64,000 bases of DNA from Candidatus Nomurabacteria bacterium GW2011_GWE1_32_28 (lineage in GTDB: Bacteria; Patescibacteriota; Minisyncoccia; Phycocordibacterales; UBA9973). This document shows positions 4,896-64,000 of this stretch, piece after piece. The notes beneath the pieces were generated by a model. That model saw only the letters and a program-made list of their open reading frames with translations, made no database searches and was not told the origin of the DNA. Within the stretch, counting starts at the first letter, position 1. Each line of letters opens with the position of its first letter. Location: assembly GCA_000989515.1 (NCBI GenBank), contig LBOM01000002.1:5453-69452 (forward strand), in the 5' to 3' direction. Made by a program: the position numbers and the translations under genes.

Positions 4896-5149
4896 CAAAA
4901 TTGTAGATTTTTATTTAGAAAGCCTTGGTAGGAGCGGCGGCGACGGACAGAGAAAATTTTTAGTAAAAAATTTTTGTGTTTTATAAATGATAATCTATAA
5001 TTTTGTCTAGATATTTACTTTAGTACTAAAATATAGGGGAATAAAGTAAAATCATACTTATTATTATCAATACAACAAGTACTGACCAAATTGCCTGAAT
5101 TTTTTTTTGGTGTTTTTTATTGAAAAACATACTATAATAATATCATATT

Positions 5150-12184: not shown

Positions 12185-12190
12185 AAAAAT

Positions 12191-12235
12191 ACACAAAAAA
12201 ACGGAAATAATACTTCCGTTTTTTTGTGTATTTAG
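12191..12235. terminator. Bidirectional intrinsic terminator
   Basis: Perfect 16 bp stem acacaaaaaaacggaa/ttccgtttttttgtgt with 7 nt loop. Lies between the YtxH gene (+) and tRNA-Gly (-). Confidence 0.8.
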
Positions 12236-13700: not shown

Positions 13701-13794
13701 TTTTAACAAAAAAAGAGTAAATATCAAAAATTTTCTGGCGTATAACATAGCCAAGATGTTCGCAGGCCAAAACTTTTATATCTACTCTTTTTTG

Positions 13795-14318: not shown

Positions 14319-14332
14319 CAATAAAATTAAAA

Positions 14333-14362
14333 AACCTACAAAATTTTGTAGGTTTTTTAATT
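14333..14362. terminator. Bidirectional intrinsic terminator
   Basis: aacctacaaaattttgtaggtt hairpin flanked by A/T runs, between tRNA-Phe (+) and hsp20 (-). Confidence 0.75.
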
Positions 14363-14366
14363 TTAT

Positions 14367-14828
14367 TTAGATTGATTTAACTTTTATGCTATTTCTTTTT
14401 TCCTTATCTACTTTTTGTATTTTTATAGTCAATAATCCATGTTTTTCTGTGGCCTCTACTTCTTCTGGTTCTACTTCTTGAGGTAATAGTATTGTTCGAG
14501 AGAATTTTCCCCAATAAAGTTCTTTTATGAAGTAGTTTTCTTCATCTATATTTTCATTTTCTTCTCTCTTACCTTTTATTGTAATAGTATCTCTAGCAAT
14601 AGTTAGTTCTAGATCTTCAGGTTTAACACCAGCTACCATTGTTTTAACTAAAATATCTGTAGGTGTTTGATATACATCTACAGTCAGTTCCATTTCTTCA
14701 TTTTCTTCTTCTATCCAACCATTACTTTTTTTGTCTTCGTTGGTTATTATTTTTTTTTCTTCAAATTCTTCTGTAGAATTTGTACCACCTGTTAATCTAT
14801 CAAAAAAACTTCTTTTTTTATTTTCCAT
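14367..14828 (-). CDS. Small heat shock protein (Hsp20/alpha-crystallin family)
   Basis: Alpha-crystallin domain: VDVYQTPTDILVKTMVAGVKPEDLELTIARDTITIKGKRE ... GKFSRTILLPQEV ... HGLLTIKI. Confidence 0.85.
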   Translation of the reverse strand: MENKKRSFFDRLTGGTNSTEEFEEKKIITNEDKKSNGWIEEENEEMELTVDVYQTPTDILVKTMVAGVKPEDLELTIARDTITIKGKREENENIDEENYFIKELYWGKFSRTILLPQEVEPEEVEATEKHGLLTIKIQKVDKEKRNSIKVKSI

Positions 14829-17784: not shown

Positions 17785-19014
17785 CTACCTTAGTCTTAAA
17801 TTGCCTTTAGCTTTTATGCTTGAGATTTTTGGTACTTTCTTATTTTTTTTAATAAACTGTAGATACCCAGCTATTCCTATCATTATTGAGTTATCTCCAG
17901 TCAATTCTTTTTCTGGAAAAAGTACCTCAGTATCTTTACCCATAGCTTTTTTCATTTCTCTTTGTAAATGCTTATTTGAAGATACTCCGCCTGCGACTAT
18001 AATAGTTTTTATTTTATATTTCTCTTTAGCTTTTTTTGTTTTATAAATAAGAGTTTCTACAACAGCGTTTTCAAATTCTAAGGCTATGGCTTGTTTTATT
18101 TTTTCGTCTTTGAAAATATTTGGATTTTCTTTTTTAAGATCTCGTATTAAATAAAGTACAGCTGTTTTTAGTCCTGAAAAAGAAAAATCAAAATTTTTAC
18201 TGTAAATCATAGGGCGGGGGAGTTTGATTTTAGAAGCAAGAGAAAAAGAAAAACTAATCTTTTCGGGGTCGCTGTCTCCGCTTGCTAGCGGAGCGCTGCC
18301 TCTCGGACCGTCGTCCTGCGAGACACCCCGCAAAGATTGTTTTTCTTTTTTTCTTGCTTCTTCTGCCAACTTCGAAATTATTGGACCACCAGGATATGGA
18401 AGATCCATCATCCGCGCAACTTTGTCATAAGCTTCTCCTGCTGCATCATCCAATGTTTCTCCTATTATTTTATATTGCATCCATTTTTTTGAAAGTATGA
18501 GTTCTGTATGCCCACCAGAAACAAGAAGAGACAATATTGGAGTTTTTATATTCGGAATTATAAATTTCTCCTTACTTTTTCCAAAGGGAGATAATATATG
18601 TCCTTCCATATGATTTACGGGCATAATAGGAATAGACCATTTTTTTGCTAATTCTTTTGCAAAGACTATACCGGTCCAGAGAGACGGCTCTAATCCTGGA
18701 CCATATGTCACAGCTATTAAATCTACTGGTTTTTTTTTATTTATCTTTTTTCTTCTAATTTCTAATTTATAATTTGTAATTTTTTCTAAAACTTGTTCTA
18801 AGAGTAAAGGTAAATTTTTTATATGTTCTCTTTTTGCCATCATAGGAAATACACCACCAAATTCTCTGTGAATTTTTATTTGTGAATTTGTAGAATTAGC
18901 TAAAACTTCAAAAGAGGTTGGTATTGTTTTTTTACCTATGTAAGTATTTTTTTTTACTTCTAATATTGTTATAGCTGTATCATCACAAGATGTTTCTATA
19001 CTTAAAATTTTCAT
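17785..19014 (-). CDS. tsaD: tRNA N6-adenosine threonylcarbamoyltransferase TsaD, carrying a ~40 aa GC-rich in-frame insertion
   Basis: MKILSIETSCDDTAI start, HMEGH, SGGHTEL, YPGGP and FSFSGLKTAV motifs. 409 aa versus about 340 typical. Confidence 0.85.
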   Translation of the reverse strand: MKILSIETSCDDTAITILEVKKNTYIGKKTIPTSFEVLANSTNSQIKIHREFGGVFPMMAKREHIKNLPLLLEQVLEKITNYKLEIRRKKINKKKPVDLIAVTYGPGLEPSLWTGIVFAKELAKKWSIPIMPVNHMEGHILSPFGKSKEKFIIPNIKTPILSLLVSGGHTELILSKKWMQYKIIGETLDDAAGEAYDKVARMMDLPYPGGPIISKLAEEARKKEKQSLRGVSQDDGPRGSAPLASGDSDPEKISFSFSLASKIKLPRPMIYSKNFDFSFSGLKTAVLYLIRDLKKENPNIFKDEKIKQAIALEFENAVVETLIYKTKKAKEKYKIKTIIVAGGVSSNKHLQREMKKAMGKDTEVLFPEKELTGDNSIMIGIAGYLQFIKKNKKVPKISSIKAKGNLRLR

Positions 19015-19015
19015 G

Positions 19016-19088
19016 TGCGCGGTACAGGATTCGAACCTATGGCCTACTCAACGTCAATGAGTCGCTCTACCAACTGAGCTAACCGCGC
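19016..19088 (-). tRNA. tRNA-Val (anticodon GAC)
   Basis: gcgcggttagctcagttggtagagcg ... ttGACgt ... ggttcgaatcc; abuts the tsaD start. Confidence 0.85.
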
Positions 19089-24183: not shown

Positions 24184-24408
24184 ATGCCTAATTTAGATGG
24201 TAGAGGACCAATGGGTCAAGGACCAAGAACTGGTCGAGGTATGGGGTGGGGTTGTTGTGGCGGATGTAGATGTGGTAGAGGTTTTGGATTTCGAAGATTT
24301 TTTTCTTCTAAAAATGATTTAGATACCTTAGAAGAACAAGAAAAAATGCTTGAGCAAGAATTAGAAGCAGTGCGTAAAGAAAAATCTGCTTTAGTAAATT
24401 TAAAGTAA
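24184..24408 (+). CDS. DUF5320-family small Gly/Cys-rich protein
   Basis: MPNLDGRGPMGQGPRTGRGMGWGCCGGCRCGRG N-terminus matches the MPxxDGTGPxGxGPxTGRGxG signature of DUF5320. C-terminal coiled coil. Confidence 0.6.
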   Translation: MPNLDGRGPMGQGPRTGRGMGWGCCGGCRCGRGFGFRRFFSSKNDLDTLEEQEKMLEQELEAVRKEKSALVNLK

Positions 24409-24414
24409 ATAATA

Positions 24415-24448
24415 CAAACTGACTTATTTGTACAGATAAGTCAGTTTG
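24415..24448 (+). terminator. Hairpin terminator
   Basis: caaactgacttat ttgtacag ataagtcagtttg, 13 bp stem. Confidence 0.6.
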
Positions 24449-24481
24449 TGTCATTTAATTTTATTAATTATTTAATTATAT

Positions 24482-31917: not shown

Positions 31918-32044
31918 AAGAAGTAATTCCTGCTCGGGAAAACAAAAATGATTGGCAGTCGGACTTGTCCTAAGACTTTTAAAGTCATAGGCTTACCGTA
32001 GCGGCACTGTGCTGGAATCTAACCAGCTTCCCCAATCACTTCTT
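31918..32044 (-). ncRNA. Unclassified structured RNA element (candidate riboswitch or cis-regulatory leader, or small RNA)
   Basis: About 47% GC island in a 30% GC background. 11 bp closing helix (gaagugauu.../...aauuacuuc), perfect with one G-U only if transcribed from the minus strand. Internal hairpins gcugg-uuagauu-ccagc and ccuaugacu-uuaaa-agucuuagg. Confidence 0.45.
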
Positions 32045-32231
32045 TATAATTATTAAATGAACTTATTTATTTTATTCTTTTATCTAAGCCTGTCAATTTT
32101 AAGTGTGGATAAAGTTTCTTGCAGATTATTTATCTTTATTTTTTTGTTTAATTATTTAAAGAATTATTCTATAAATACCCAAGAGATTTCACTAATAGGG
32201 GATTAAAACTAGTTTTTCAATCAGATAGGTT

Positions 32232-35422: not shown

Positions 35423-36382
35423 TTATTTTGTGTGTATATGAAGGTATATATCTTCAAGAGCACGTACAGCATCACCAGCAGCGATGTTGTTTTGATGGTA
35501 TAAAATATCTGTACAATCTCCAGCAGCCCAAATACCAGGAGTTTCTGTTTTCTGATTTAATGGATTTATTTTTACACGTCCTCCTTCATCTAATGGAACG
35601 ATATCCTTAATGAAATTAGTGTTTGGAATTTGACCTATTTCTATAAAAATACCAGAGACTTTTAATTTGGTTTCTATATTAGAAATTTTATCTTTATAGA
35701 TTATTCCTTCTACAAAATTTTCACCCTTTATTTCTAAAATATCTATATCTTTGTATGCTTTAATTTTAGGATTTTTAAGAACTTTTTCAACTGTTATTTC
35801 GTCTGCTCTAAATTTTTCACTTCTATGAAGTATTGTTACTGAATTACAGTAAGCAGAAAGTTGTGCAGCACTTTCAAAAGCAGCATTACCTCCACCAACA
35901 ACAACGACATCCATATCTGAAAAAAGGGGACCATCACAAGTTGCACAATATGTAAGGCCTTTATGTTCAAGCTTATCTGCATTTTTTACTTCTAATTTTT
36001 TACGTCCACTTCCTGTAGCTATCAATATTGTTTTAGTTAAAAATTCTTCTCCAGACTCTGTTTTAATAGAAAAAGTTTCAGGTGTTGGACGCCCAGATTC
36101 CAGGTGTCCAACACCCGAAACTATACTTGAAACTTTTTCTCCTTCTTTTACTTCTAATGTTTGACCGTCTCCAGTATTAGCAAGTACGTGTTTTTTTAGA
36201 TTTAGAGCTAAATTAGCACCAGATATAGAAACAGAACCAATCCAGTTATAGATTTGTTCCGACACGATGGATTGACCACCCCATTCCTTGGTTATAAATA
36301 AAGTTTTAAGTTTTTTACGAGAAGCATATACAGCGGCAGCTGCACCTGCTGGCCCTCCTCCAATGATTATTAAATCGTACAT
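35423..36382 (-). CDS. trxB: Thioredoxin reductase
   Basis: FAD motif IIGGGPAGAAAA, redox-active CATCDG, NADPH site. Confidence 0.9.
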   Translation of the reverse strand: MYDLIIIGGGPAGAAAAVYASRKKLKTLFITKEWGGQSIVSEQIYNWIGSVSISGANLALNLKKHVLANTGDGQTLEVKEGEKVSSIVSGVGHLESGRPTPETFSIKTESGEEFLTKTILIATGSGRKKLEVKNADKLEHKGLTYCATCDGPLFSDMDVVVVGGGNAAFESAAQLSAYCNSVTILHRSEKFRADEITVEKVLKNPKIKAYKDIDILEIKGENFVEGIIYKDKISNIETKLKVSGIFIEIGQIPNTNFIKDIVPLDEGGRVKINPLNQKTETPGIWAAGDCTDILYHQNNIAAGDAVRALEDIYLHIHTK

Positions 36383-36406
36383 AAAAAATTAGATTTTAGT
36401 TTATTT

Positions 36407-42144: not shown

Positions 42145-42588
42145 ATGCTTATAGGTGAATACATACATACAATAGATGAGAAGAATAGAATTTCTTTACC
42201 AGTAAAATTTCGAAAAGAACTTGGTAAGAAAATTATTATTACACCCGGGCTTGATCAATGTTTATTTGTCTTTACAGCTAGTGAATGGAAAAAGGTTTCT
42301 AAAAGACTTTCTGACTCAGATTCTGATCTTTCTTTTCTAAAAGCTGACAAAAGAAGTTTTAATAGATTTATGTTTGGACGAGCAGTGGAAGTAGATATAG
42401 ATACAATTGGAAGAATTTTGATTCCTGATTTTCTTAAAGAAAGAATTAAGCTTACAGACAAAGCAGCGATAATCGGAGTAGAAGATAGACTTGAAATTTG
42501 GAATGATAAAACATGGTTGCAATATAGAGATGTAGTAGAGAAACAAGCAGATCAATTAGCAGAGAAATTAGGTAGTGGAGAATTTTAA
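42145..42588 (+). CDS. mraZ: Transcriptional regulator MraZ
   Basis: Two SpoVT/AbrB-like repeats, DEKNRISLP and analogous second motif. Confidence 0.9.
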   Translation: MLIGEYIHTIDEKNRISLPVKFRKELGKKIIITPGLDQCLFVFTASEWKKVSKRLSDSDSDLSFLKADKRSFNRFMFGRAVEVDIDTIGRILIPDFLKERIKLTDKAAIIGVEDRLEIWNDKTWLQYRDVVEKQADQLAEKLGSGEF

Positions 42589-43576
42589 GATGAGAAGTGT
42601 ACACAAGACAGTTCTTTTAAATGAAACAATAGATGGTCTAAATTTATCATCACTTGATAAAAAAGATAATGTTTTGATTTTAGATGCAACATTTGGTGGT
42701 GGCGGACATAGTATTGAAATCTTAAAAAGATATCCAAATGTAAAAATAATTGCATTAGATCAAGATAAAGGTGCTTGGGAGAAAGCGAAAGATAAATTTA
42801 AAGGTTTAGAAAAGAGGATTTCTTTTATAAACAAAAATTTTAGAGATATAGATCAAATTTTTCAAAAAGAAAATTTAAAAGATTCCTATGCCTTCACCCA
42901 GGGCGGCATAAGGACAGGGAACCAACACGACGCTTTAAATCTTTCAAATTATCTTTTTGATGGAATTATATTTGACCTAGGCTTGAGTTCAGACCAATTA
43001 GAGAATTCCGGACGAGGATTTTCCTTCATGAAAAATGAGCCATTACTTATGACAATGAAAGAAAATCCTCTTCCAGAAGATCTTACAGCTATGGATATAA
43101 TAAATGGCTGGAGTGAGAAAAGTTTAGCAGATATTATCTATGGCTATGGTGAGGAAAGATTTTCTAGAAGAATAGCAAAAGCAATAATAGAAGCCAGAAA
43201 ATTAAATAGTATAGAGAATACAGAAGATTTAGTAAAAGTTATTAGCGACAGTGTTCCAGCATCATACAGAAGACAGAGACTGCATTTTGCAACAAGAACA
43301 TTTCAAGCATTAAGAATAGCAGTAAATGATGAATTAGGGGTGTTAGAGAAGGGTTTAGAAGCTGGACTAAGAGTTCTTAAAAAAGGAGGCAGAATATCAG
43401 TAATTTCATTTCATAGTTTAGAAGATAGGATTGTGAAGAGATTCTTTAAAGATAAAAAAGATAAAGAAGAAGTAATTTTAATAAATAAAAAACCAATAAT
43501 AGCAAACGAAGAAGAAATAATAAATAATCCAAGATCAAGAAGTAGTAAATTACGAATTTTAGAAAAAATTATATGA
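42575..43576 (+). CDS. rsmH: 16S rRNA (cytosine1402-N4)-methyltransferase RsmH, with 17-codon insertion derived from a dispersed repeat
   Basis: DATFGGGGHS SAM motif, DLGLSSDQLE, GFSFMKNEPL, ISFHSLEDRIVK. Confidence 0.9.
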   Translation: MENFKMRSVHKTVLLNETIDGLNLSSLDKKDNVLILDATFGGGGHSIEILKRYPNVKIIALDQDKGAWEKAKDKFKGLEKRISFINKNFRDIDQIFQKENLKDSYAFTQGGIRTGNQHDALNLSNYLFDGIIFDLGLSSDQLENSGRGFSFMKNEPLLMTMKENPLPEDLTAMDIINGWSEKSLADIIYGYGEERFSRRIAKAIIEARKLNSIENTEDLVKVISDSVPASYRRQRLHFATRTFQALRIAVNDELGVLEKGLEAGLRVLKKGGRISVISFHSLEDRIVKRFFKDKKDKEEVILINKKPIIANEEEIINNPRSRSSKLRILEKII

Positions 43577-52868: not shown

Positions 52869-53502
52869 TTTTAATATGCATACAGTACAAGTTCTAAATC
52901 AATTAGTAGAAAATCATCAAATAATAGCATATTTAATAATTTTTGTAGGTCTTATTATTGAAGGTGAAGTTGTTGTTATTACTGCTGGTGTTTTGTCATA
53001 TTTGGGAGCTTTAGATTTTTGGATATCACTTTCTTTTATTTTAGCTGGTGGAATGGTTAAAACATTTGGTGGCTATTATTTAGGAGGTTTCCTTCATAAA
53101 AAATATAATCATCATAGATTTTTTAAATATCTTGAGAAAAGAGTTTTTTATTTTATACCCAGGTTTGAACAAAAACCATTTTGGTCTATTTTTATTTCAA
53201 AATTTATAATTGGTGTAAATTATTTAGTTATTATTTTTTCTGGATATAGTAAAATTTCATTAAGAACATTTTTAAAAGCTGAAATATTTTCTACAATAAT
53301 TTGGGCGCCAATACTTTTGTCACTAGGATTCTTTTTTAGTCAGACTGCATTATCTTTAAGTAAAGAAATAGGTAGGTTTTCTTTACTTATATTTATATTT
53401 CTTTTTATATTCCTATTTTTTGATAAATTAATTGCCTCATTCTATCGAATCTTTGAATTTTTAAAGAATACTAATATTATTAATGAAAAAGAAAATGAAT
53501 AA
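52852..53502 (+). CDS. DedA/SNARE-associated family membrane protein
   Basis: About 200 aa, 4-5 TM helices, LIIFVGLIIEGEVVVITAGVL DedA-like N-terminus. Confidence 0.5.
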   Translation: MIVFFNFNMHTVQVLNQLVENHQIIAYLIIFVGLIIEGEVVVITAGVLSYLGALDFWISLSFILAGGMVKTFGGYYLGGFLHKKYNHHRFFKYLEKRVFYFIPRFEQKPFWSIFISKFIIGVNYLVIIFSGYSKISLRTFLKAEIFSTIIWAPILLSLGFFFSQTALSLSKEIGRFSLLIFIFLFIFLFFDKLIASFYRIFEFLKNTNIINEKENE

Positions 53503-54388
53503 AAAAAAATTAATTACACATAATGGATCTTTTCATTCAGATGATATTTTTGCTGCTGCCACACTTTCTCTATTATTAGAAAAAAGTGGTGAAAGTTTTG
53601 AAATAATACGTACTCGTGATCCAGAAATAATTAAAACAGGGGATTACGTTTTTGATGTTGGTGGAGTTTATGATGAAAATATAAATAGATTTGACCATCA
53701 CCAAAAAGGATTTGAAGAAAAAAGGTCTAATGGGATTATTTATTCTTCTTTTGGTTTAGTTTGGAAGAAATTTGGTGTTGATTTAGTAGGATCACAAGAT
53801 ATAGCAGATATTTTAGATAAGAAACTTACAGCTCCTATAGATGCTTCTGACAATGGTATTGATTTAGTTGAAAATAAATATGATGTATCGCCTTACTTTT
53901 TACAGTATTTTTTCTTTTCAATGAATCCAACATGGAATGAAAAAAAACTAGAGAAAGATGAAATGTTTTTAAAATGTATAGATATTGCAAAGATGATCCT
54001 CTCTAGAGAAATTATTCAAGCTGAGCATTTTATTTTAGCAGAAGAAAAAATAAAAGAGGATTATGAAAATTCAAAAGATAAAAGAATAATTATTTTAAAT
54101 AAAGATTATTCATATGAAAATATTTTAAATAAATTTACTGAACCTATTTTTGTTGTTTATCCAAGGACAGACAATATTAGTTGGGGTGTAAAGGCCATAA
54201 GAGAAGATCCAAAGAATTTTAAGAATAAAAAAAATTTACCAAAAGATTGGGGTGGTTTAATGAATGAAGAATTGCAAAATATCACAGGTGTTGAGGATGC
54301 TATATTTTGCCATAAGGCACTTTTTATGGCAGTAGCAAAATCTAAGGAAGGAGCTATAAAATTAGCTAATTTAGCACTTTCAGTGTAA
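53483..54388 (+). CDS. MYG1/UPF0160 family metal-dependent hydrolase
   Basis: THNGSFHSDD N-terminal signature and DHHQ motif (RFDHHQKG). Confidence 0.7.
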   Translation: MKKKMNKKKLITHNGSFHSDDIFAAATLSLLLEKSGESFEIIRTRDPEIIKTGDYVFDVGGVYDENINRFDHHQKGFEEKRSNGIIYSSFGLVWKKFGVDLVGSQDIADILDKKLTAPIDASDNGIDLVENKYDVSPYFLQYFFFSMNPTWNEKKLEKDEMFLKCIDIAKMILSREIIQAEHFILAEEKIKEDYENSKDKRIIILNKDYSYENILNKFTEPIFVVYPRTDNISWGVKAIREDPKNFKNKKNLPKDWGGLMNEELQNITGVEDAIFCHKALFMAVAKSKEGAIKLANLALSV

Positions 54389-54482
54389 AATTAAGAAAAT
54401 CAAAAATTTTTGAGCCTTCGCCCTCGGAGTCATAAGGACAGGGGACCCACGACTCTTAAAATTTTTATTTTCTTAATTTTAT

Positions 54483-55517
54483 ATGGCATTTATAGATGAA
54501 ATAAAAATATATGGAGAAGCAGGCACTGGTGGCAACGGTGTTGTTCGTTGGCGTCAGGAGAAATTTATACCCAAAGGTGGGCCTGCAGGAGGTGATGGTG
54601 GACGTGGTGGTGATTTTTATGTTCAAGCTGTTCGCGATATACACATACTTTCAAAATATAAGGCAAAGAAAAGTTTTTATGCCGATAAGGGTGAGGATGG
54701 TGGAAATAAAAGTTTACATGGAAAAAGTGGTGATGATTTTATTTTAGAATTACCTATTGGATCTATCATTACAAATTTAGATACAGAAGAAAAATATCAA
54801 CTTTTTAAGGAAGGAGAAAAAATATTACTTTTAAAAGGTGGCTATGGTGGATTTGGGAATGAACATTTTAAAAGTTCTACAAATACAACTCCACAAGATT
54901 GGCGCCCCGGAGAAGAAGGAGAACATGGTGATTTTCACATAGAATTAGAACTTTTTGCTGACATAGGCCTAGTGGGGCTTCCCAACGCTGGTAAATCATC
55001 ACTGCTTAACTCTATAACCAATGCAGATGCAAAAGTAGGTGATTATGCTTTTACTACGTTAGATCCTAATTTGGGTGATTTTTATGGATATACGATAGCT
55101 GATATCCCAGGACTTATAGAAGGAGCAAATATGGGAAAAGGATTGGGGGTCAAATTTCTACGACATATAAAACGCACTAAGATGATTGCGCATCTTGTTT
55201 CTTTTGAAAATTTATCTAAAGGTTCTACTGGTATGATAAAAGTTTATAAAGAGATTCGTAAGGAACTTGAAAAATATGATAAGAATTTAAATTTAGAAGA
55301 TGAAGGTCTTTCTCTTAAAGATGAGATAATTATTTTGACTAAATCTGACACAGTAGAGAATGATAAAACAATAGAAAGAGAAAAAAGTAAATTTAAAAAA
55401 ATACTTGCCCGTTCCTCTGGCGGGAGTAAGAAAGTTTTTGTGTTGTCTTTATTTGATGATGATAGTGTAAAGAATCTGAGAGACGAATTAGTGAAAATTT
55501 TAAAGAAAAAGGTATAA
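54483..55517 (+). CDS. obg: GTPase Obg
   Basis: Glycine-rich Obg fold (GGNGVVRWRQEKFIPKGGPAGGDGGRGGD), G1 GLPNAGKSSLL, G3 DIPG. Confidence 0.9.
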   Translation: MAFIDEIKIYGEAGTGGNGVVRWRQEKFIPKGGPAGGDGGRGGDFYVQAVRDIHILSKYKAKKSFYADKGEDGGNKSLHGKSGDDFILELPIGSIITNLDTEEKYQLFKEGEKILLLKGGYGGFGNEHFKSSTNTTPQDWRPGEEGEHGDFHIELELFADIGLVGLPNAGKSSLLNSITNADAKVGDYAFTTLDPNLGDFYGYTIADIPGLIEGANMGKGLGVKFLRHIKRTKMIAHLVSFENLSKGSTGMIKVYKEIRKELEKYDKNLNLEDEGLSLKDEIIILTKSDTVENDKTIEREKSKFKKILARSSGGSKKVFVLSLFDDDSVKNLRDELVKILKKKV

Positions 55518-58770: not shown

Positions 58771-60150
58771 ATGGCCAGAAAGACAGTTATAGCTTTTTTT
58801 ATTACAGTTTTTATCATAGTATCTTTAATATTTAAGACGTCTAATAGTGTAGATGCTTCTTTTGATTGTCTTACTTTAAACAACTTTTCTTCTGAAATAG
58901 ATAAAAATTTTTGTAGGAATGAACTTGTTCAGATAGAAGCCCAACTCGCTGATTTATTAAATAAACAAAAAGAACAACAAAAACAGACAGGTACATTGAA
59001 GGGTGATGTAACTTATTTAGCTAGTCAAATAAATGCACTAAAAACAAAAGTTAAAGCTAGAGCTTTGAAAATTGCTCAGCTTAAAGTAGATATAAAAGAC
59101 AAGGTTGTTAAGATAGATACCCTATCAGAAAAGATAAATCGTGAACATGAATCTCTAGCTCAATTATTACGAAATACAAATGATTTTGATAATCAAGATT
59201 TTATATATTTAATTTTTTCTGATGAAAGCCTTTCTAGTTTTTATAATGATCTTGAATCTTATGATTCTATCAAACAAGCAATAAAAACATCTGTTGATCA
59301 AATTAGAGGAATAAAAAGTGAGACAGAAGTACAAAAAAAAGACCTAGAAACAAAACAAGATGCAGAAACTAACGCAAAAGTGGAACTTGAAATTGCTCAG
59401 AAGAAGATTGCTCAAAGTGAATTAGAAAAGAAAAAACTTTTAGATATAAGTAAACAAAAAGAAAGTGAATATGAAAAACTCGCAGCTGAAAAAAAAGCAA
59501 GAGCAGAGAAGATTCGTTCTGCCTTGTTTCCACTTCGTGATGCAAAAGCTATACCGTTTGGCACAGCCTTAGAATATGCACGAGAAGCTGAAAAAATAAC
59601 AGGAGTTCGCCCAGCATTTGTTTTAGCTATTTTAAAACAAGAAACTAATCTAGGAGCCAATGTAGGTTCGTGTGTTATAACCAATCTTTCTACTGGCGAA
59701 ACAAAAAGTCAAAATTCAGATAAAGTTTTTGCTAAAGGTATTCATCCTACTCGTGATTTGCCTCTTTTACAAGAAATAGTTAAAGAACTTGGAAGAAATC
59801 CTCTTAGCACCGTGGTCTCTTGTCCACAATCAGTGGGTTATGGTGGAGCAATGGGTCCTGCACAATTTATTCCATCAACATGGGACTTGATTAAATCACA
59901 GATAGCAAAAGCTGTAGGTAAAACGGTCCCTGATCCTTGGAATCCTCTTGATGCAATTATGGCATCTTCTATTTTACTTAAAGGAAATGGTGCAGGATCT
60001 CAAACCTATACAGCAGAAAGAGATGCTGCCTGTAGATATTATTCTGGAAGAAAATGTTCTGATCCATCTGTAAAAAATGCTTTTTATGGAAATTCTGTTA
60101 TGGCCATTGCTGCAAAAATCCAAACAGATATAGATTTGCTTTCAATCTAA
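58771..60150 (+). CDS. Membrane-anchored coiled-coil protein with C-terminal MltB-type lytic transglycosylase domain
   Basis: N-terminal TM, about 250 aa coiled coil, then AFVLAILKQETNLG and GGAMGPAQFIPSTW matching the MltB/Slt35 catalytic-domain motifs. Confidence 0.65.
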   Translation: MARKTVIAFFITVFIIVSLIFKTSNSVDASFDCLTLNNFSSEIDKNFCRNELVQIEAQLADLLNKQKEQQKQTGTLKGDVTYLASQINALKTKVKARALKIAQLKVDIKDKVVKIDTLSEKINREHESLAQLLRNTNDFDNQDFIYLIFSDESLSSFYNDLESYDSIKQAIKTSVDQIRGIKSETEVQKKDLETKQDAETNAKVELEIAQKKIAQSELEKKKLLDISKQKESEYEKLAAEKKARAEKIRSALFPLRDAKAIPFGTALEYAREAEKITGVRPAFVLAILKQETNLGANVGSCVITNLSTGETKSQNSDKVFAKGIHPTRDLPLLQEIVKELGRNPLSTVVSCPQSVGYGGAMGPAQFIPSTWDLIKSQIAKAVGKTVPDPWNPLDAIMASSILLKGNGAGSQTYTAERDAACRYYSGRKCSDPSVKNAFYGNSVMAIAAKIQTDIDLLSI

Positions 60151-60267
60151 TATTATGATAATATGATAAAAGAAAATTCAAAAGATTTCTGAGTCTTAGT
60201 CCTTGGAGTCCGTGAGAACAGGGGACTAACACGACTCTTAAAATCTTTTAATTTTCTTTTTAAATTT

Positions 60268-60486
60268 ATGAAAAAAGATATACACCCAAAATTTGACGTT
60301 AAAGCTAAAGCTACTTGTGTATGTGGATCTGTTTTTGAAGTAGGTTCAACAATATCTGAAATAAAAATGGAAATTTGTAGTCATTGCCATCCTTTTTATA
60401 CTGGTAATGAAAAAGTTATGGATACCGCTGGACGCGTAGAACGTTTCAATAAGCGTCGTGCTTTAGTTGCAAAAGCTAAAAAGTAA
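60268..60486 (+). CDS. rpmE: 50S ribosomal protein L31
   Basis: MKKDIHPKF N-terminus, CxxC ... CSHCHPFYTG zinc ribbon. Confidence 0.9.
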   Translation: MKKDIHPKFDVKAKATCVCGSVFEVGSTISEIKMEICSHCHPFYTGNEKVMDTAGRVERFNKRRALVAKAKK

Positions 60487-60628
60487 CTTAATAATTACCA
60501 AGCTCTTTCTTGGCATACTTTTTATAAAGCACAAAAATTTTCTACTAAAAATTTTCTCTGTCCGTCGCCGTCGCTCCTACCAAGGCTTTCTAAAAAATAC
60601 GCCTGCAACGAGCTTATAATATATCTAT

Positions 60629-63888: not shown

Positions 63889-64000
63889 TTGGTAGTTAGA
63901 AGATTTAAAATTTAAAAATTTTTAATTTTTAAATCTTTTATACTGCTCGTTATATACGAGTATTGTATTATTAATTTAAAAAATTTTAATTTTCTATGGA

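What the first reader, a model, noticed from the sequence alone, without database searches (positions are those of the whole stretch)
42893..42943. Dispersed ~40 nt GC-rich motif: one copy is a 51 nt in-frame insertion inside rsmH
The motif cataaggacaggg[a/g]acc[a/c]acacgac[g/t]ctttaaa occurs at 42907-42941 inside the rsmH coding sequence. Related copies lie at 54426-54462 and 60205-60245.

In RsmH the segment encodes FTQGGIRTGNQHDAL, about 17 extra residues relative to the canonical spacing between the ...L(K/I)G(K/I)... region and the DLGVSS motif seen in the E. coli RsmH I know. The insertion is a multiple of 3 and lies in a predicted surface loop. This is the behaviour expected of a short mobile or recombinogenic element tolerated in-frame.
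Basis: seen in the sequence. Interest (0 to 1): 0.6.

Follow-up and report, generated by a model that had tools for sequence, protein, structure and literature searches.

The report
Hairpin repeat element translated inside rsmH
The GC-rich stretch inside rsmH is the core of a roughly 100-base hairpin-shaped repeat that is scattered through the tiny genomes of Nomurabacteria, usually between genes but sometimes in-frame inside essential genes, much like the palindromic elements of Rickettsia.

Summary
The 51-nt GC-rich segment is the core of a 100-115 nt hairpin. This has a long AT-rich stem that differs from locus to locus and co-varies, and a nearly invariant asymmetric core of about 45 nt.

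The window (Ca. Nomurabacteria, about 30% GC) holds exactly three copies. One is in rsmH and two fill whole intergenic spacers.

A core pattern found more than 110 copies in at least 34 species-level Nomurabacteria/Paceibacterota genomes. No Rfam family matches.

About 90% of copies are intergenic. In spacers between genes on the same strand, 64 are sense and 7 antisense.

The rest lie in-frame in rsmH, leuS, ligA, uvrC and an FAD-oxidase gene. They are read in all three sense frames and in antisense.

In rsmH the insert is about 27 aa, in a low-confidence loop. At least 30 of the 120 closest homologues carry it. It has been lost by deletion in at least one lineage, probably more. Other palindromes occupy the same site.

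At the obg spacer, arms and core are 94-96% identical while neighbouring synonymous sites are saturated. That argues for selection, not mere tolerance.

Verdict: an undescribed element resembling Rickettsia palindromic elements (RPEs) in the Candidate Phyla Radiation (CPR). Its RNA-level role is unknown.

The parts
42862..42960 (+). Whole hairpin element inside rsmH. Arms lie at 42862-42884 and 42938-42960. The block absent from the insert-free homologue is 42872-42955 (84 nt).
   Evidence: The inverted repeat I12 is 91% complementary. The covariance-model hit at 42852-42968 scores 79.6 bits. The comparison with the empty site is to L117.
42888..42933 (+). GC-rich core of the rsmH copy. Its closing helix P1 is degraded to AUG/CGC. 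It encodes YAFTQGGIRTGNQHDA.
   Evidence: This is the lowest-scoring of the three window copies. It has mismatches in P1 and in the CUUC/GGAG hairpin.
42575..43576 (+). Host gene rsmH (mraW). The database protein P0001 starts at the ATG at 42590.
   Evidence: ORF. P0001 is a 100% identical match with Pfam PF01795. PDB homologues are 1m6y and 3tka.
54386..54481 (+). Intergenic copy that fills the whole spacer between ORF 53483..54388 and obg 54483..55517. The core is 54412-54455. The upstream stop codon lies in the 5' arm, and the obg ATG follows the 3' arm by 2 nt.
   Evidence: I2; 118 bits. Orthologous copies are 92-99% identical where the flanking genes are 59-87% identical.
60167..60262 (+). 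Intergenic copy between ORF 58771..60150 and ORF 60268..60486. The core is 60191-60237. It has the GUCC-GUGA-G(G/A)AC loop variant.
   Evidence: I5, I18; 87 bits.

Best explanation
The segment is the core of a member of an undescribed family of hairpin-shaped interspersed repeats in Ca. Nomurabacteria/Paceibacterota.

Anatomy (shown). Each copy has three parts:
- an AT-rich stem of 19-29 bp whose distal sequence is specific to the locus;
- a 3-bp closing helix that co-varies as GAG/CUC or GCG/CGC;
- a nearly invariant GC-rich core of about 45 nt, CCUUCGCCCUCGGAGUCAUAAGGACAGGGRACC(AA)CACGA.

The core can form a CUUC/GGAG hairpin whose loop (CCCU) pairs with AGGG downstream.

How it behaves (shown). 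The family is dispersed between genes. It is also found in-frame inside unrelated housekeeping genes, in either orientation. The rsmH copy is translated as a loop of about 27 aa and is eroding.

How it spreads (inferred). I infer a DNA-level process that places the core at A-tract/T-tract junctions. These are the AAAA|TTTT centres of AT-rich palindromes, or AAA-TTT codon pairs inside genes.

Why it is tolerated (inferred). The insert folds back on itself. In an operon spacer the hairpin would bring the upstream stop codon and the downstream start codon back together. In a protein it adds only a surface loop.

Intergenic copies are additionally kept by the host. Arms and core are under purifying selection, and the sense orientation is strongly preferred. 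This points to a cis role of the transcribed hairpin in polycistronic mRNA, such as processing, stability or coupling. That role is inferred, not shown.
For: Copy number and spread:
- 3 copies in the window against 0 expected.
- More than 110 copies in at least 34 Nomurabacteria/Paceibacterota genomes, several per genome.

Hairpin:
- The distal arms of one copy fold together at -13.0 kcal/mol, against -3.7 for arms taken from different copies. The arms are only 39% identical between copies.
- 20 of 25 outer-stem pairs show changes on both sides, and 0 of 500 shuffles reach the observed score.
- GAG/CTC occurs 84 times and GCG/CGC 20 times, with no GAG/CGC or GCG/CTC combinations.

In-frame coding copies:
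- Hosts are RsmH, LeuRS, LigA (two sites), UvrC and an FAD-linked oxidase (two sites), confirmed by Pfam.
- Antisense in-frame copies occupy the same rsmH site (L019) and the same oxidase site (L047).
- The core is read in three sense frames.

Presence or absence in rsmH:
- At least 30 element-bearing, 10 with another palindrome, 74 with only a short linker (4 of them residual arms), scattered over the tree.
- L120 and L121 (92% nucleotide identity) differ by a 63-nt block between AATTT repeats. L121 keeps the 3' arm, so this is a deletion.

Exchangeable cores in one hairpin (obg spacer of 74 orthologues):
- Most of the rest (about 30) have spacers under 20 nt and no hairpin; 13 sense and 3 antisense.
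- 9 carry a different core family, once inside the same outer arms (L166).
- There are bare perfect palindromes with the same arms (L133, L164).

Selection:
- At the obg locus, arms are 94-95% and core 96% identical. Third codon positions of obg are 52-67% identical, and the drop occurs at the element boundary.
- One path of compensatory change is visible: AAG/CTT, then AAG/CAT, then ATG/CAT.
- Among intergenic copies between genes on the same strand, 64 are sense and 7 antisense.
- Almost no decayed copies exist. Model scores run from 79 to 124 bits, and then there are only two hits, at 66 and 36 bits, in 0.74 Mb.

Loop location: pLDDT is 44-55 in the insert. The insert is about 24 aa extra relative to 1m6y.
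Against: - No target-site duplication, no conserved long terminal repeats and no partner transposase were found, so the means of spread is unknown.
- The only recent presence/absence difference I could resolve is a deletion, not an insertion.
- Stem co-variation could come from template-switch 'palindrome correction' rather than from selection.
- In the outer stem, A.C mismatches (166) outnumber G.U pairs (86) on the sense strand. That is the opposite of what simple selection on a sense-strand RNA predicts.
- Strong conservation at orthologous loci and the lack of decayed copies are unusual for a purely selfish repeat.
- No transcript data are available.
Confidence: 0.65

Rival explanations
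1. This is primarily a host-functional structured RNA, not a selfish repeat. It would be a new class of cis-acting element: a self-cleaving or RNase-recognised processing module, an mRNA 3'-end stabiliser, or a device for stop-start coupling. It would be placed in operon spacers. The copies inside genes would be accidents of the same duplication process.
For: - The core is nearly invariant across at least 34 species-level genomes.
- Arms and core at the obg locus are far better conserved than synonymous sites.
- The sense bias is 64:7.
- Model scores are bimodal, without relics.
- The core has a plausible compact H-type pseudoknot in which every observed change keeps a pair or a wobble.
- The hairpin base coincides with the upstream stop codon and the downstream start codon.
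- Copies inside genes score about 20 bits lower than intergenic ones.
Against: - The flanking genes are functionally unrelated.
- About 30 of 74 obg orthologues manage with spacers under 20 nt and no hairpin.
- Other core families and bare palindromes substitute in the same hairpin.
- Antisense copies exist.
- No core pair shows a change on both sides.
- No Rfam ribozyme or other family matches.
- The excess of A.C over G.U does not favour a sense-strand RNA.
Confidence: 0.25
2. The element carries an outward-facing promoter, as Correia elements do. AGGACA, then 16-18 nt, then TAAAAT in the 3' half of the core would drive the downstream gene. This would explain the sense bias and the position just upstream of start codons.
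For: - A sigma-70-like match, AGGACA-16-TAAAAT, lies at 54435-54462 on the + strand.
- The AA insertion/deletion would keep the spacer at 16 or 18 nt.
- Copies end 25-40 nt before the next start codon.
Against: - The match scores 9 of 12 and is no more frequent than in shuffles.
- Copy 3 gives no such match.
- A promoter does not explain an invariant spacer sequence, the hairpin, or the conserved 5' half.
- 14 copies sit between convergent genes, where a promoter would be useless.
Confidence: 0.07
3. The segment is a lineage-specific RsmH protein insertion kept for a protein-level function. Its resemblance to the intergenic copies would be incidental.
For: The insert keeps an open reading frame in all homologues that carry it.
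Against: - The same nucleotide core is read in different frames, giving AFALGDIRTGNQHDAL, AYALGDIGQGTHDAL and ETAPSETKGQGTHTFL. It is also read in antisense, giving SVVGSLSSGLRGRRRKNF.
- At least 74 of 120 close homologues lack it.
- The modelled loop has low confidence.
- The identical core occurs in more than 100 non-coding places.
Confidence: 0.02

Closest known systems
Rickettsia palindromic elements (RPEs)
   Same: Both are short (about 100-150 bp) palindromic repeats in a reduced, AT-rich genome. Both are found between genes and, strikingly, in-frame inside unrelated housekeeping genes, where they are translated as extra peptide segments compatible with the fold. Both occur as several families in one genome (review PMC10969869, read). 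In this window, three different hairpin inserts lie in rsmH, tsaD and a Pyr_redox_2 gene.
   Different: The phylum is different (Patescibacteria/CPR), and sequence relatedness to RPEs was not tested. Here the stem varies between loci while a 45-nt asymmetric core is almost invariant across species. There is a 9:1 sense bias and strong conservation at orthologous loci. Cores appear exchangeable within one hairpin. I did not find any of these features described for RPEs.
[quoted passage not shown]
   Same: These are multi-copy, non-coding and hairpin-forming. They are mostly intergenic and co-transcribed with neighbouring genes. Known effects on mRNA include RNase III cleavage at Correia inverted repeats and RNase E unmasking by ERIC (PMC10969869).
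   Different: No target-site duplication, no conserved long terminal repeats and no partner insertion sequence were found. REPs are 20-40 nt and extragenic. This element is about 100 nt and also occurs inside genes.
GC-rich palindromic clusters of AT-rich organelle genomes (yeast mitochondrial GC clusters; coding palindromes of Nematomorpha mitochondria, PMC6649704)
   Same: GC-rich hairpin modules are dispersed in a very AT-rich genome, and some lie inside coding sequences without breaking the frame. The yeast case is from my own knowledge. The Nematomorpha title and abstract were seen.
   Different: Those are organelle genomes, and the repeats are simple palindromes. Here the core is asymmetric and not itself a palindrome.
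Insertion sequences that target hairpin loops (IS1397/ISKpn1 into REP loops; IS110 family)
   Same: The inferred preference for the apex of a pre-existing palindrome resembles these (own knowledge, a lead only).
   Different: Those are full insertion sequences with transposase genes. Nothing of the kind was seen here.

Membership tests
MITE | Short, non-coding, many copies per genome | tested here: met
   The element is 100-115 nt with no ORF of its own. There are 3 copies in 64 kb, and several per genome in at least 34 genomes.
MITE | Terminal inverted repeats with a sequence conserved across the family | tested here: inconclusive
   Only the inner 9-10 bp (AAAAATTT / AAAATTTTT) are conserved. 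The distal arms are 39% identical between copies but complementary within each copy.
MITE | Target-site duplication flanking each copy | tested here: inconclusive
   The filled/empty comparisons show no duplication (window against L117). The AATTT repeats around the 63-nt difference mark a deletion. The inner stem is self-complementary, so it mimics a direct repeat, and the G/C stem variant rules out a true duplication.
MITE | Cognate autonomous insertion sequence with matching ends | not tested
   The one attempt, a search for core halves standing alone, failed because my 5'-half pattern was faulty, so it says nothing. No whole-genome search was possible.
Rickettsia palindromic elements (as a kind) | Palindromic repeat inserted in-frame in unrelated protein-coding genes and kept translatable | tested here: met
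   Hosts are RsmH, LeuRS, LigA (two sites), UvrC, an FAD-linked oxidase (two sites), and also TsaD and Pyr_redox_2 for sister families.
Rickettsia palindromic elements (as a kind) | Sequence homology to RPE-1 to RPE-10 | not tested
   No RPE sequences were available to compare. The phylum is different, so I claim only that it works like an RPE.
REP/BIME | 20-40 nt imperfect palindrome, strictly extragenic, with a REP-associated tyrosine transposase (RAYT) | tested here: not met
   The element is about 100 nt and about 10% of copies are inside genes. RAYT genes were not searched.
Known structured RNA families (Rfam 15, including hammerhead, twister, pistol, hatchet, HDV-like) | Match to a curated covariance model | tested here: not met
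   Nothing reached the gathering score. At E up to 10, only generic long-hairpin matches appeared, such as microRNA precursors and plastid 3' UTR families.
Intrinsic terminator | GC-rich stem with a short loop followed by a U tract | tested here: not met
   The scan found 0 terminator-like sites around copies 2 and 3. Most copies lie inside operons, and there is no enrichment at convergent gene ends.

The most novel reading that the evidence does not exclude
The hairpins of Nomurabacteria act as docking sites whose apex carries exchangeable, highly conserved structured-RNA modules. These include this core and the second core family ('F4') seen in the obg spacer of other genomes. On this reading the present core is a new class of functional RNA, for example a small self-cleaving or RNase- or protein-recognised pseudoknot that punctuates polycistronic mRNAs. 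It would be so robustly self-folding that it can also ride inside coding sequences.
Probability: 0.25. Interest if true: 0.8.

Novelty: new variant of a known kind. Interest (0 to 1): 0.62.

Why it matters
CPR/Patescibacteria genomes are regarded as extremely streamlined and poor in mobile DNA. Yet these genomes carry several families of hairpin repeats, some written into essential genes (rsmH, leuS, ligA, uvrC, tsaD). This phenomenon is otherwise known mainly from Rickettsia and from organelles.

It matters in three practical ways.

1. Annotation and protein-family alignments of CPR genomes. Unexplained loop insertions in conserved enzymes may be repeat DNA.

2. How new peptide segments arise in proteins.

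3. RNA biology. The core is as conserved as a functional RNA, is absent from Rfam, and sits exactly between stop and start codons in operons. It is therefore a concrete candidate for an mRNA-processing or coupling signal in organisms that cannot yet be cultured.

The apparent swapping of cores at the apex of one conserved hairpin, if confirmed, would be an unusual mode of mobility.

Tried and rejected
- **Rfam, gathering and permissive.** No family matched, only generic hairpins.
- **RNAalifold on the MAFFT alignment.** It missed the outer stem because the low-complexity arms were out of register. I replaced it with a hand-derived structure, tested.
- **Exact look-up of the GTG-start RsmH.** Not on record. 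The database protein starts at the ATG at 42590.
- **Mid-core GAGUC pairing with 3' GACUC.** Rejected, because the 3' CUC co-varies with the 5' GAG and not with the mid-core.
- **CCUU/AAGG pairing.** Weak: 10 copies have G-to-A without compensation.
- **Mimicry of the 16S rRNA 3' end (h44/h45), recalled from memory.** No SSU model hit even at E up to 10, so I dropped it.
- **Target-site duplication.** None found.
- **Search for core halves standing alone around an ORF.** My 5'-half pattern was faulty and the output uninformative. I did not repeat it.
- **BLAST for 'excised' palindromes among the first loci.** None, as expected from how those loci were chosen. They were found later through Obg orthologues.
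- **G.U versus A.C counts to decide which strand folds.** A.C exceeded G.U on the sense strand. This is unexplained and was not used as support.
- **Promoter and terminator scans.** One promoter-like match at chance level, and no terminators.
- **Literature.** Nothing on such repeats in Nomurabacteria or CPR in the held library.

Full report
**1. What is in the sequence**

The window is about 30% GC. Its best protein matches are to Ca. Nomurabacteria. RsmH is 100% identical to P0001, which comes from a 264-kb Nomurabacteria contig.

The motif occurs three times, always on the + strand:
- inside the rsmH ORF 42575..43576;
- in the 94-nt spacer between ORF 53483..54388 and obg 54483..55517;
- in the 117-nt spacer between ORFs 58771..60150 and 60268..60486.

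A pattern for the conserved 3' half hits these three places against none in 100 shuffles.

Each GC-rich block is the centre of a much longer inverted repeat, with arms of 23-29 nt that are 79-91% complementary. Each of the three regions folds into one long hairpin, with z-scores of -3 to -5. The unit is therefore about 100 nt, not 40-51 nt.

**2. A large family with a characteristic anatomy**

About 110 of them are in Nomurabacteria/Paceibacterota MAGs, at least 34 assemblies, with several copies per genome. Six hits in high-GC genomes are chance.

In an alignment of 112 copies (A2), the core is almost invariant: GAG-CCUUCGCCCUCGGAGUCAUAAGGACAGGGRACC(AA)CACGA-CUC. The flanking arms differ from locus to locus.

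The arms are complementary within a copy but not between copies:
- Distal arms from the same copy fold at -13.0 kcal/mol, against -3.7 for mismatched partners, at only 39% arm identity.
- On a hand-derived structure, 87% of cells pair and 20 of 25 outer-stem pairs show double changes. None of 500 shuffles reaches the observed score, and sliding the partner columns degrades it.
- The 3-bp helix that closes the core switches between GAG/CUC (84 copies) and GCG/CGC (20 copies), with no GAG/CGC or GCG/CUC combinations.

Inside the core, two helices fit all the variation, but only through wobble-compatible single changes:
- a CUUC/GGAG hairpin;
- pairing of its loop (CCCU) with AGGG downstream.

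These two helices would make an H-type pseudoknot. A small apical hairpin appears as GUCC-GUGA-GGAC in one variant. The core structure is plausible but not proven.

No Rfam family matches.

A covariance model (R1) finds exactly three copies in the window, at 118, 87 and 80 bits. The rsmH copy is the weakest. In 0.74 Mb of related loci, scores run from 79 to 124 bits. Below that there are only two hits, at 66 and 36 bits, so decayed relics are nearly absent.

**3. Where copies sit**

Of 117 copies, 105 are intergenic.
- They typically fill the whole spacer. The upstream stop codon lies 10-30 nt before the core, which is inside or at the base of the 5' arm. The next start codon lies 25-40 nt after the core, just past the 3' arm.
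- In spacers between genes on the same strand, 64 copies are sense and 7 antisense.
- Convergent spacers (14) and divergent spacers (9) are not enriched.

About a tenth of copies lie inside long ORFs. Pfam confirms the hosts:
- LeuRS (L007, L024, L099);
- NAD-dependent DNA ligase at two different sites (L050, L063);
- UvrC (L090);
- an FAD-linked oxidase at two sites (L078, L111);
- RsmH.

All are in-frame. The core is read in all three sense frames: ACA-GGG in RsmH, CAG-GGA in LigA, UvrC and the oxidase (and in some RsmH homologues), and AGG-GGA in LeuRS.

Two copies are in-frame in antisense at sites that carry sense copies in other genomes. These are rsmH in L019 and the oxidase in L047.

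**4. The rsmH copy**

Among the 120 closest RsmH homologues (63-78% identity):
- at least 30 carry the element at exactly this site, between NxNFRDLD and xDGIIFDLGLSS;
- 10 carry a different palindrome;
- 74 have only a short linker of 3-15 aa; in at least 4 of these it is a leftover of the arms.

Carriers are scattered over a neighbour-joining tree. That tree is poorly resolved.

The peptide differs with the frame (AFALGDIRTGNQHDAL, AFALGDKRTGDPRRL, AYALGDIGQGTHDAL, ETAPSETKGQGTHTFL), while the DNA core is retained. What is conserved is therefore nucleotide sequence, not protein.

Comparisons at the DNA level:
- Against an empty homologue (L117), the window has 84 nt (42872-42955) in place of one codon.
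- A pair of genomes with 92% identical rsmH differs by a 63-nt block bounded by AATTT repeats. The shorter allele keeps the 3' arm (NFSNYL), so it is a deletion derivative. P0037 and P0041 compared with P0026 and P0033 look the same at the protein level.
- Arms co-vary even within the gene. One lineage has AAAGAT with ATCTTT and another has GAAAAT with ATTTTC, and both flanking peptide stretches change as a result.
- The element region is somewhat better conserved than the rest of rsmH (0.84-0.91 against 0.76-0.82 for three pairs). That is far less than for the intergenic obg copy, and a second subtype (GAAAC...GUUUC) occupies the site in L122.

The window copy has mismatches in the closing helix and in the CUUC/GGAG hairpin, so it appears to be eroding.

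At the protein level:
- Compared with T. maritima MraW, the insert adds about 24 residues between two conserved blocks.
- In an AlphaFold model, the insert has pLDDT 44-55 between elements at about 90. This is consistent with a loop.

Perfect GC-rich palindromes of other kinds sit in-frame at the same site in L123 (19-bp stem) and L124 (17-bp stem).

**5. Evidence for selection and for exchange**

The obg-upstream copy is orthologous in at least eight distinct genomes.
- Its locus-specific arms are 94-95% identical and its core 96%.
- Third codon positions of obg next door are 52-67% identical. The drop occurs at the element boundary, so a recombination tract does not explain it.
- One arm position shows the path A-U, then A.A, then U-A.

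Yet among 74 Obg orthologues from metagenomes the spacer takes many states:
- about 30 have spacers under 20 nt and no hairpin;
- 13 have the element in sense;
- 3 have it in antisense, and L126 has homologous arms;
- 9 carry a different core family of about 70 nt, in either orientation, once inside the same outer arms (L166);
- two are bare perfect palindromes with the same arms and no core. L133 corresponds to the copies that carry this element, and L164 to the copy with the other core in L128.

The inner stem AAAATTTT is self-complementary. The core is therefore flanked by sequences that are both inverted and direct repeats. That makes precise loss, and perhaps gain, at palindrome centres easy.

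Insert-free rsmH alleles have AAATTT or GAATTT exactly at the insertion point.

**6. Interpretation**

Shown:
- a dispersed family of hairpin repeats with a conserved asymmetric core;
- in-frame, translated copies in several essential genes, in both orientations;
- repeated loss in rsmH;
- strong conservation and a sense bias of intergenic copies.

Inferred:
- spread by a DNA-level process aimed at A/T-tract junctions or palindrome centres;
- tolerance because the insert folds back on itself, so that stop and start codons, or the two ends of a protein loop, stay adjacent;
- a cis role for the transcribed hairpin.

The closest known behaviour is that of Rickettsia palindromic elements (review PMC10969869), with elements of Correia, ERIC and REP biology. 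Membership in any named family is not claimed. I found no target-site duplication and did not search for a partner transposase. The distal arms, unlike true terminal repeats, are not conserved.

Rivals:
- a purely host-functional RNA module (about 0.25);
- an element-borne promoter (weak; the AGGACA-16-TAAAAT match is at chance level);
- a protein-level insertion (refuted by the frame data).

Unexplained: A.C mismatches outnumber G.U pairs in the sense-strand stem.

**7. Novelty**

I found no description of such repeats in CPR bacteria in the held literature and no Rfam model. I rate it a new variant of a known kind: RPE-like, but with variable arms, an ultra-conserved core, an orientation bias and apparently exchangeable cores.

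Noticed in passing
window 18232-18361 (in ORF 17788-19047, - strand): A 130-nt hairpin (-71 kcal/mol) with an AT-rich outer stem and a two-hairpin core of about 70% GC lies in-frame inside tsaD. The Pfam TsaD match is split around it. It has the same architecture as the rsmH element but a different core family.
   Followed up: partly
window 36074-36122 (in ORF 35426-36388, - strand): A GC-rich palindrome with 20-nt arms lies in-frame in a Pyr_redox_2 (thioredoxin-reductase-like) gene and encodes SGVGHLESGRPTPE. The same palindrome type sits in the rsmH hot spot of another genome (L124, P0058).
   Followed up: partly
window 4911-4962 and 60551-60596: Two reverse-complement copies of another GC-rich motif of about 45 nt (AAGCCTTGGTAGGAGCGGCGGCGACGGACAGAG). 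The second lies about 300 nt downstream of element copy 3.
   Followed up: no
window 13709-13793: A long hairpin shares the inner stem (ATCAAAAATTTT...) with the element but has an unrelated 35-nt centre. It lies next to a tRNA gene and scored 26 bits with the model, from the stem alone.
   Followed up: partly
window 14320-14367, 63897-63940, 12187-12233, 24402-24461: Perfect or near-perfect AT-rich palindromes with no loop. Two of them (14320-14367, 63897-63940) are centred on AAAATTTT. These look like the 'empty' hairpins that elsewhere carry a core.
   Followed up: partly
L128, L130, L131, L142, L166, L172, L176, L183, L203 (obg-upstream spacers): A second core family of about 70 nt (..GGTACRGATTTTTTGAAGCTTAAAAAATCCTGAA..CCCCTT..) is embedded in AT-rich hairpins in either orientation. 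In L166 it lies inside the same outer arms that carry the studied core in other genomes.
   Followed up: partly
L125, L147, L173, L179 (obg-upstream spacers); flanks of L111 and L115: Short tandem-like GCCTAGTGCCTAAAGCC repeats fill some spacers. AACTTTATGAACTTTAT repeats fill others (L152, L155, L157, L192, L200).
   Followed up: no
L083:6022-6150 (- strand): This copy of the element has a further small GC hairpin (CCTGCCTACCGACAGGCAGG) nested inside its core.
   Followed up: no
A2 outer-stem columns (all copies): On the sense strand, A.C mismatches (166) outnumber G.U pairs (86). This is the opposite of what selection on a sense-strand RNA hairpin would predict.
   Followed up: partly
window 31933-32080 (- strand): A cobalamin riboswitch match just above the Rfam gathering score (31.8 against 31.5 bits).
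   Followed up: no
window 43006-43078: A 24-nt inverted repeat (88% complementary) lies within the conserved GRGFSFM...MKENPLPE part of rsmH. This part aligns with canonical RsmH, so it is probably not an insertion.
   Followed up: partly
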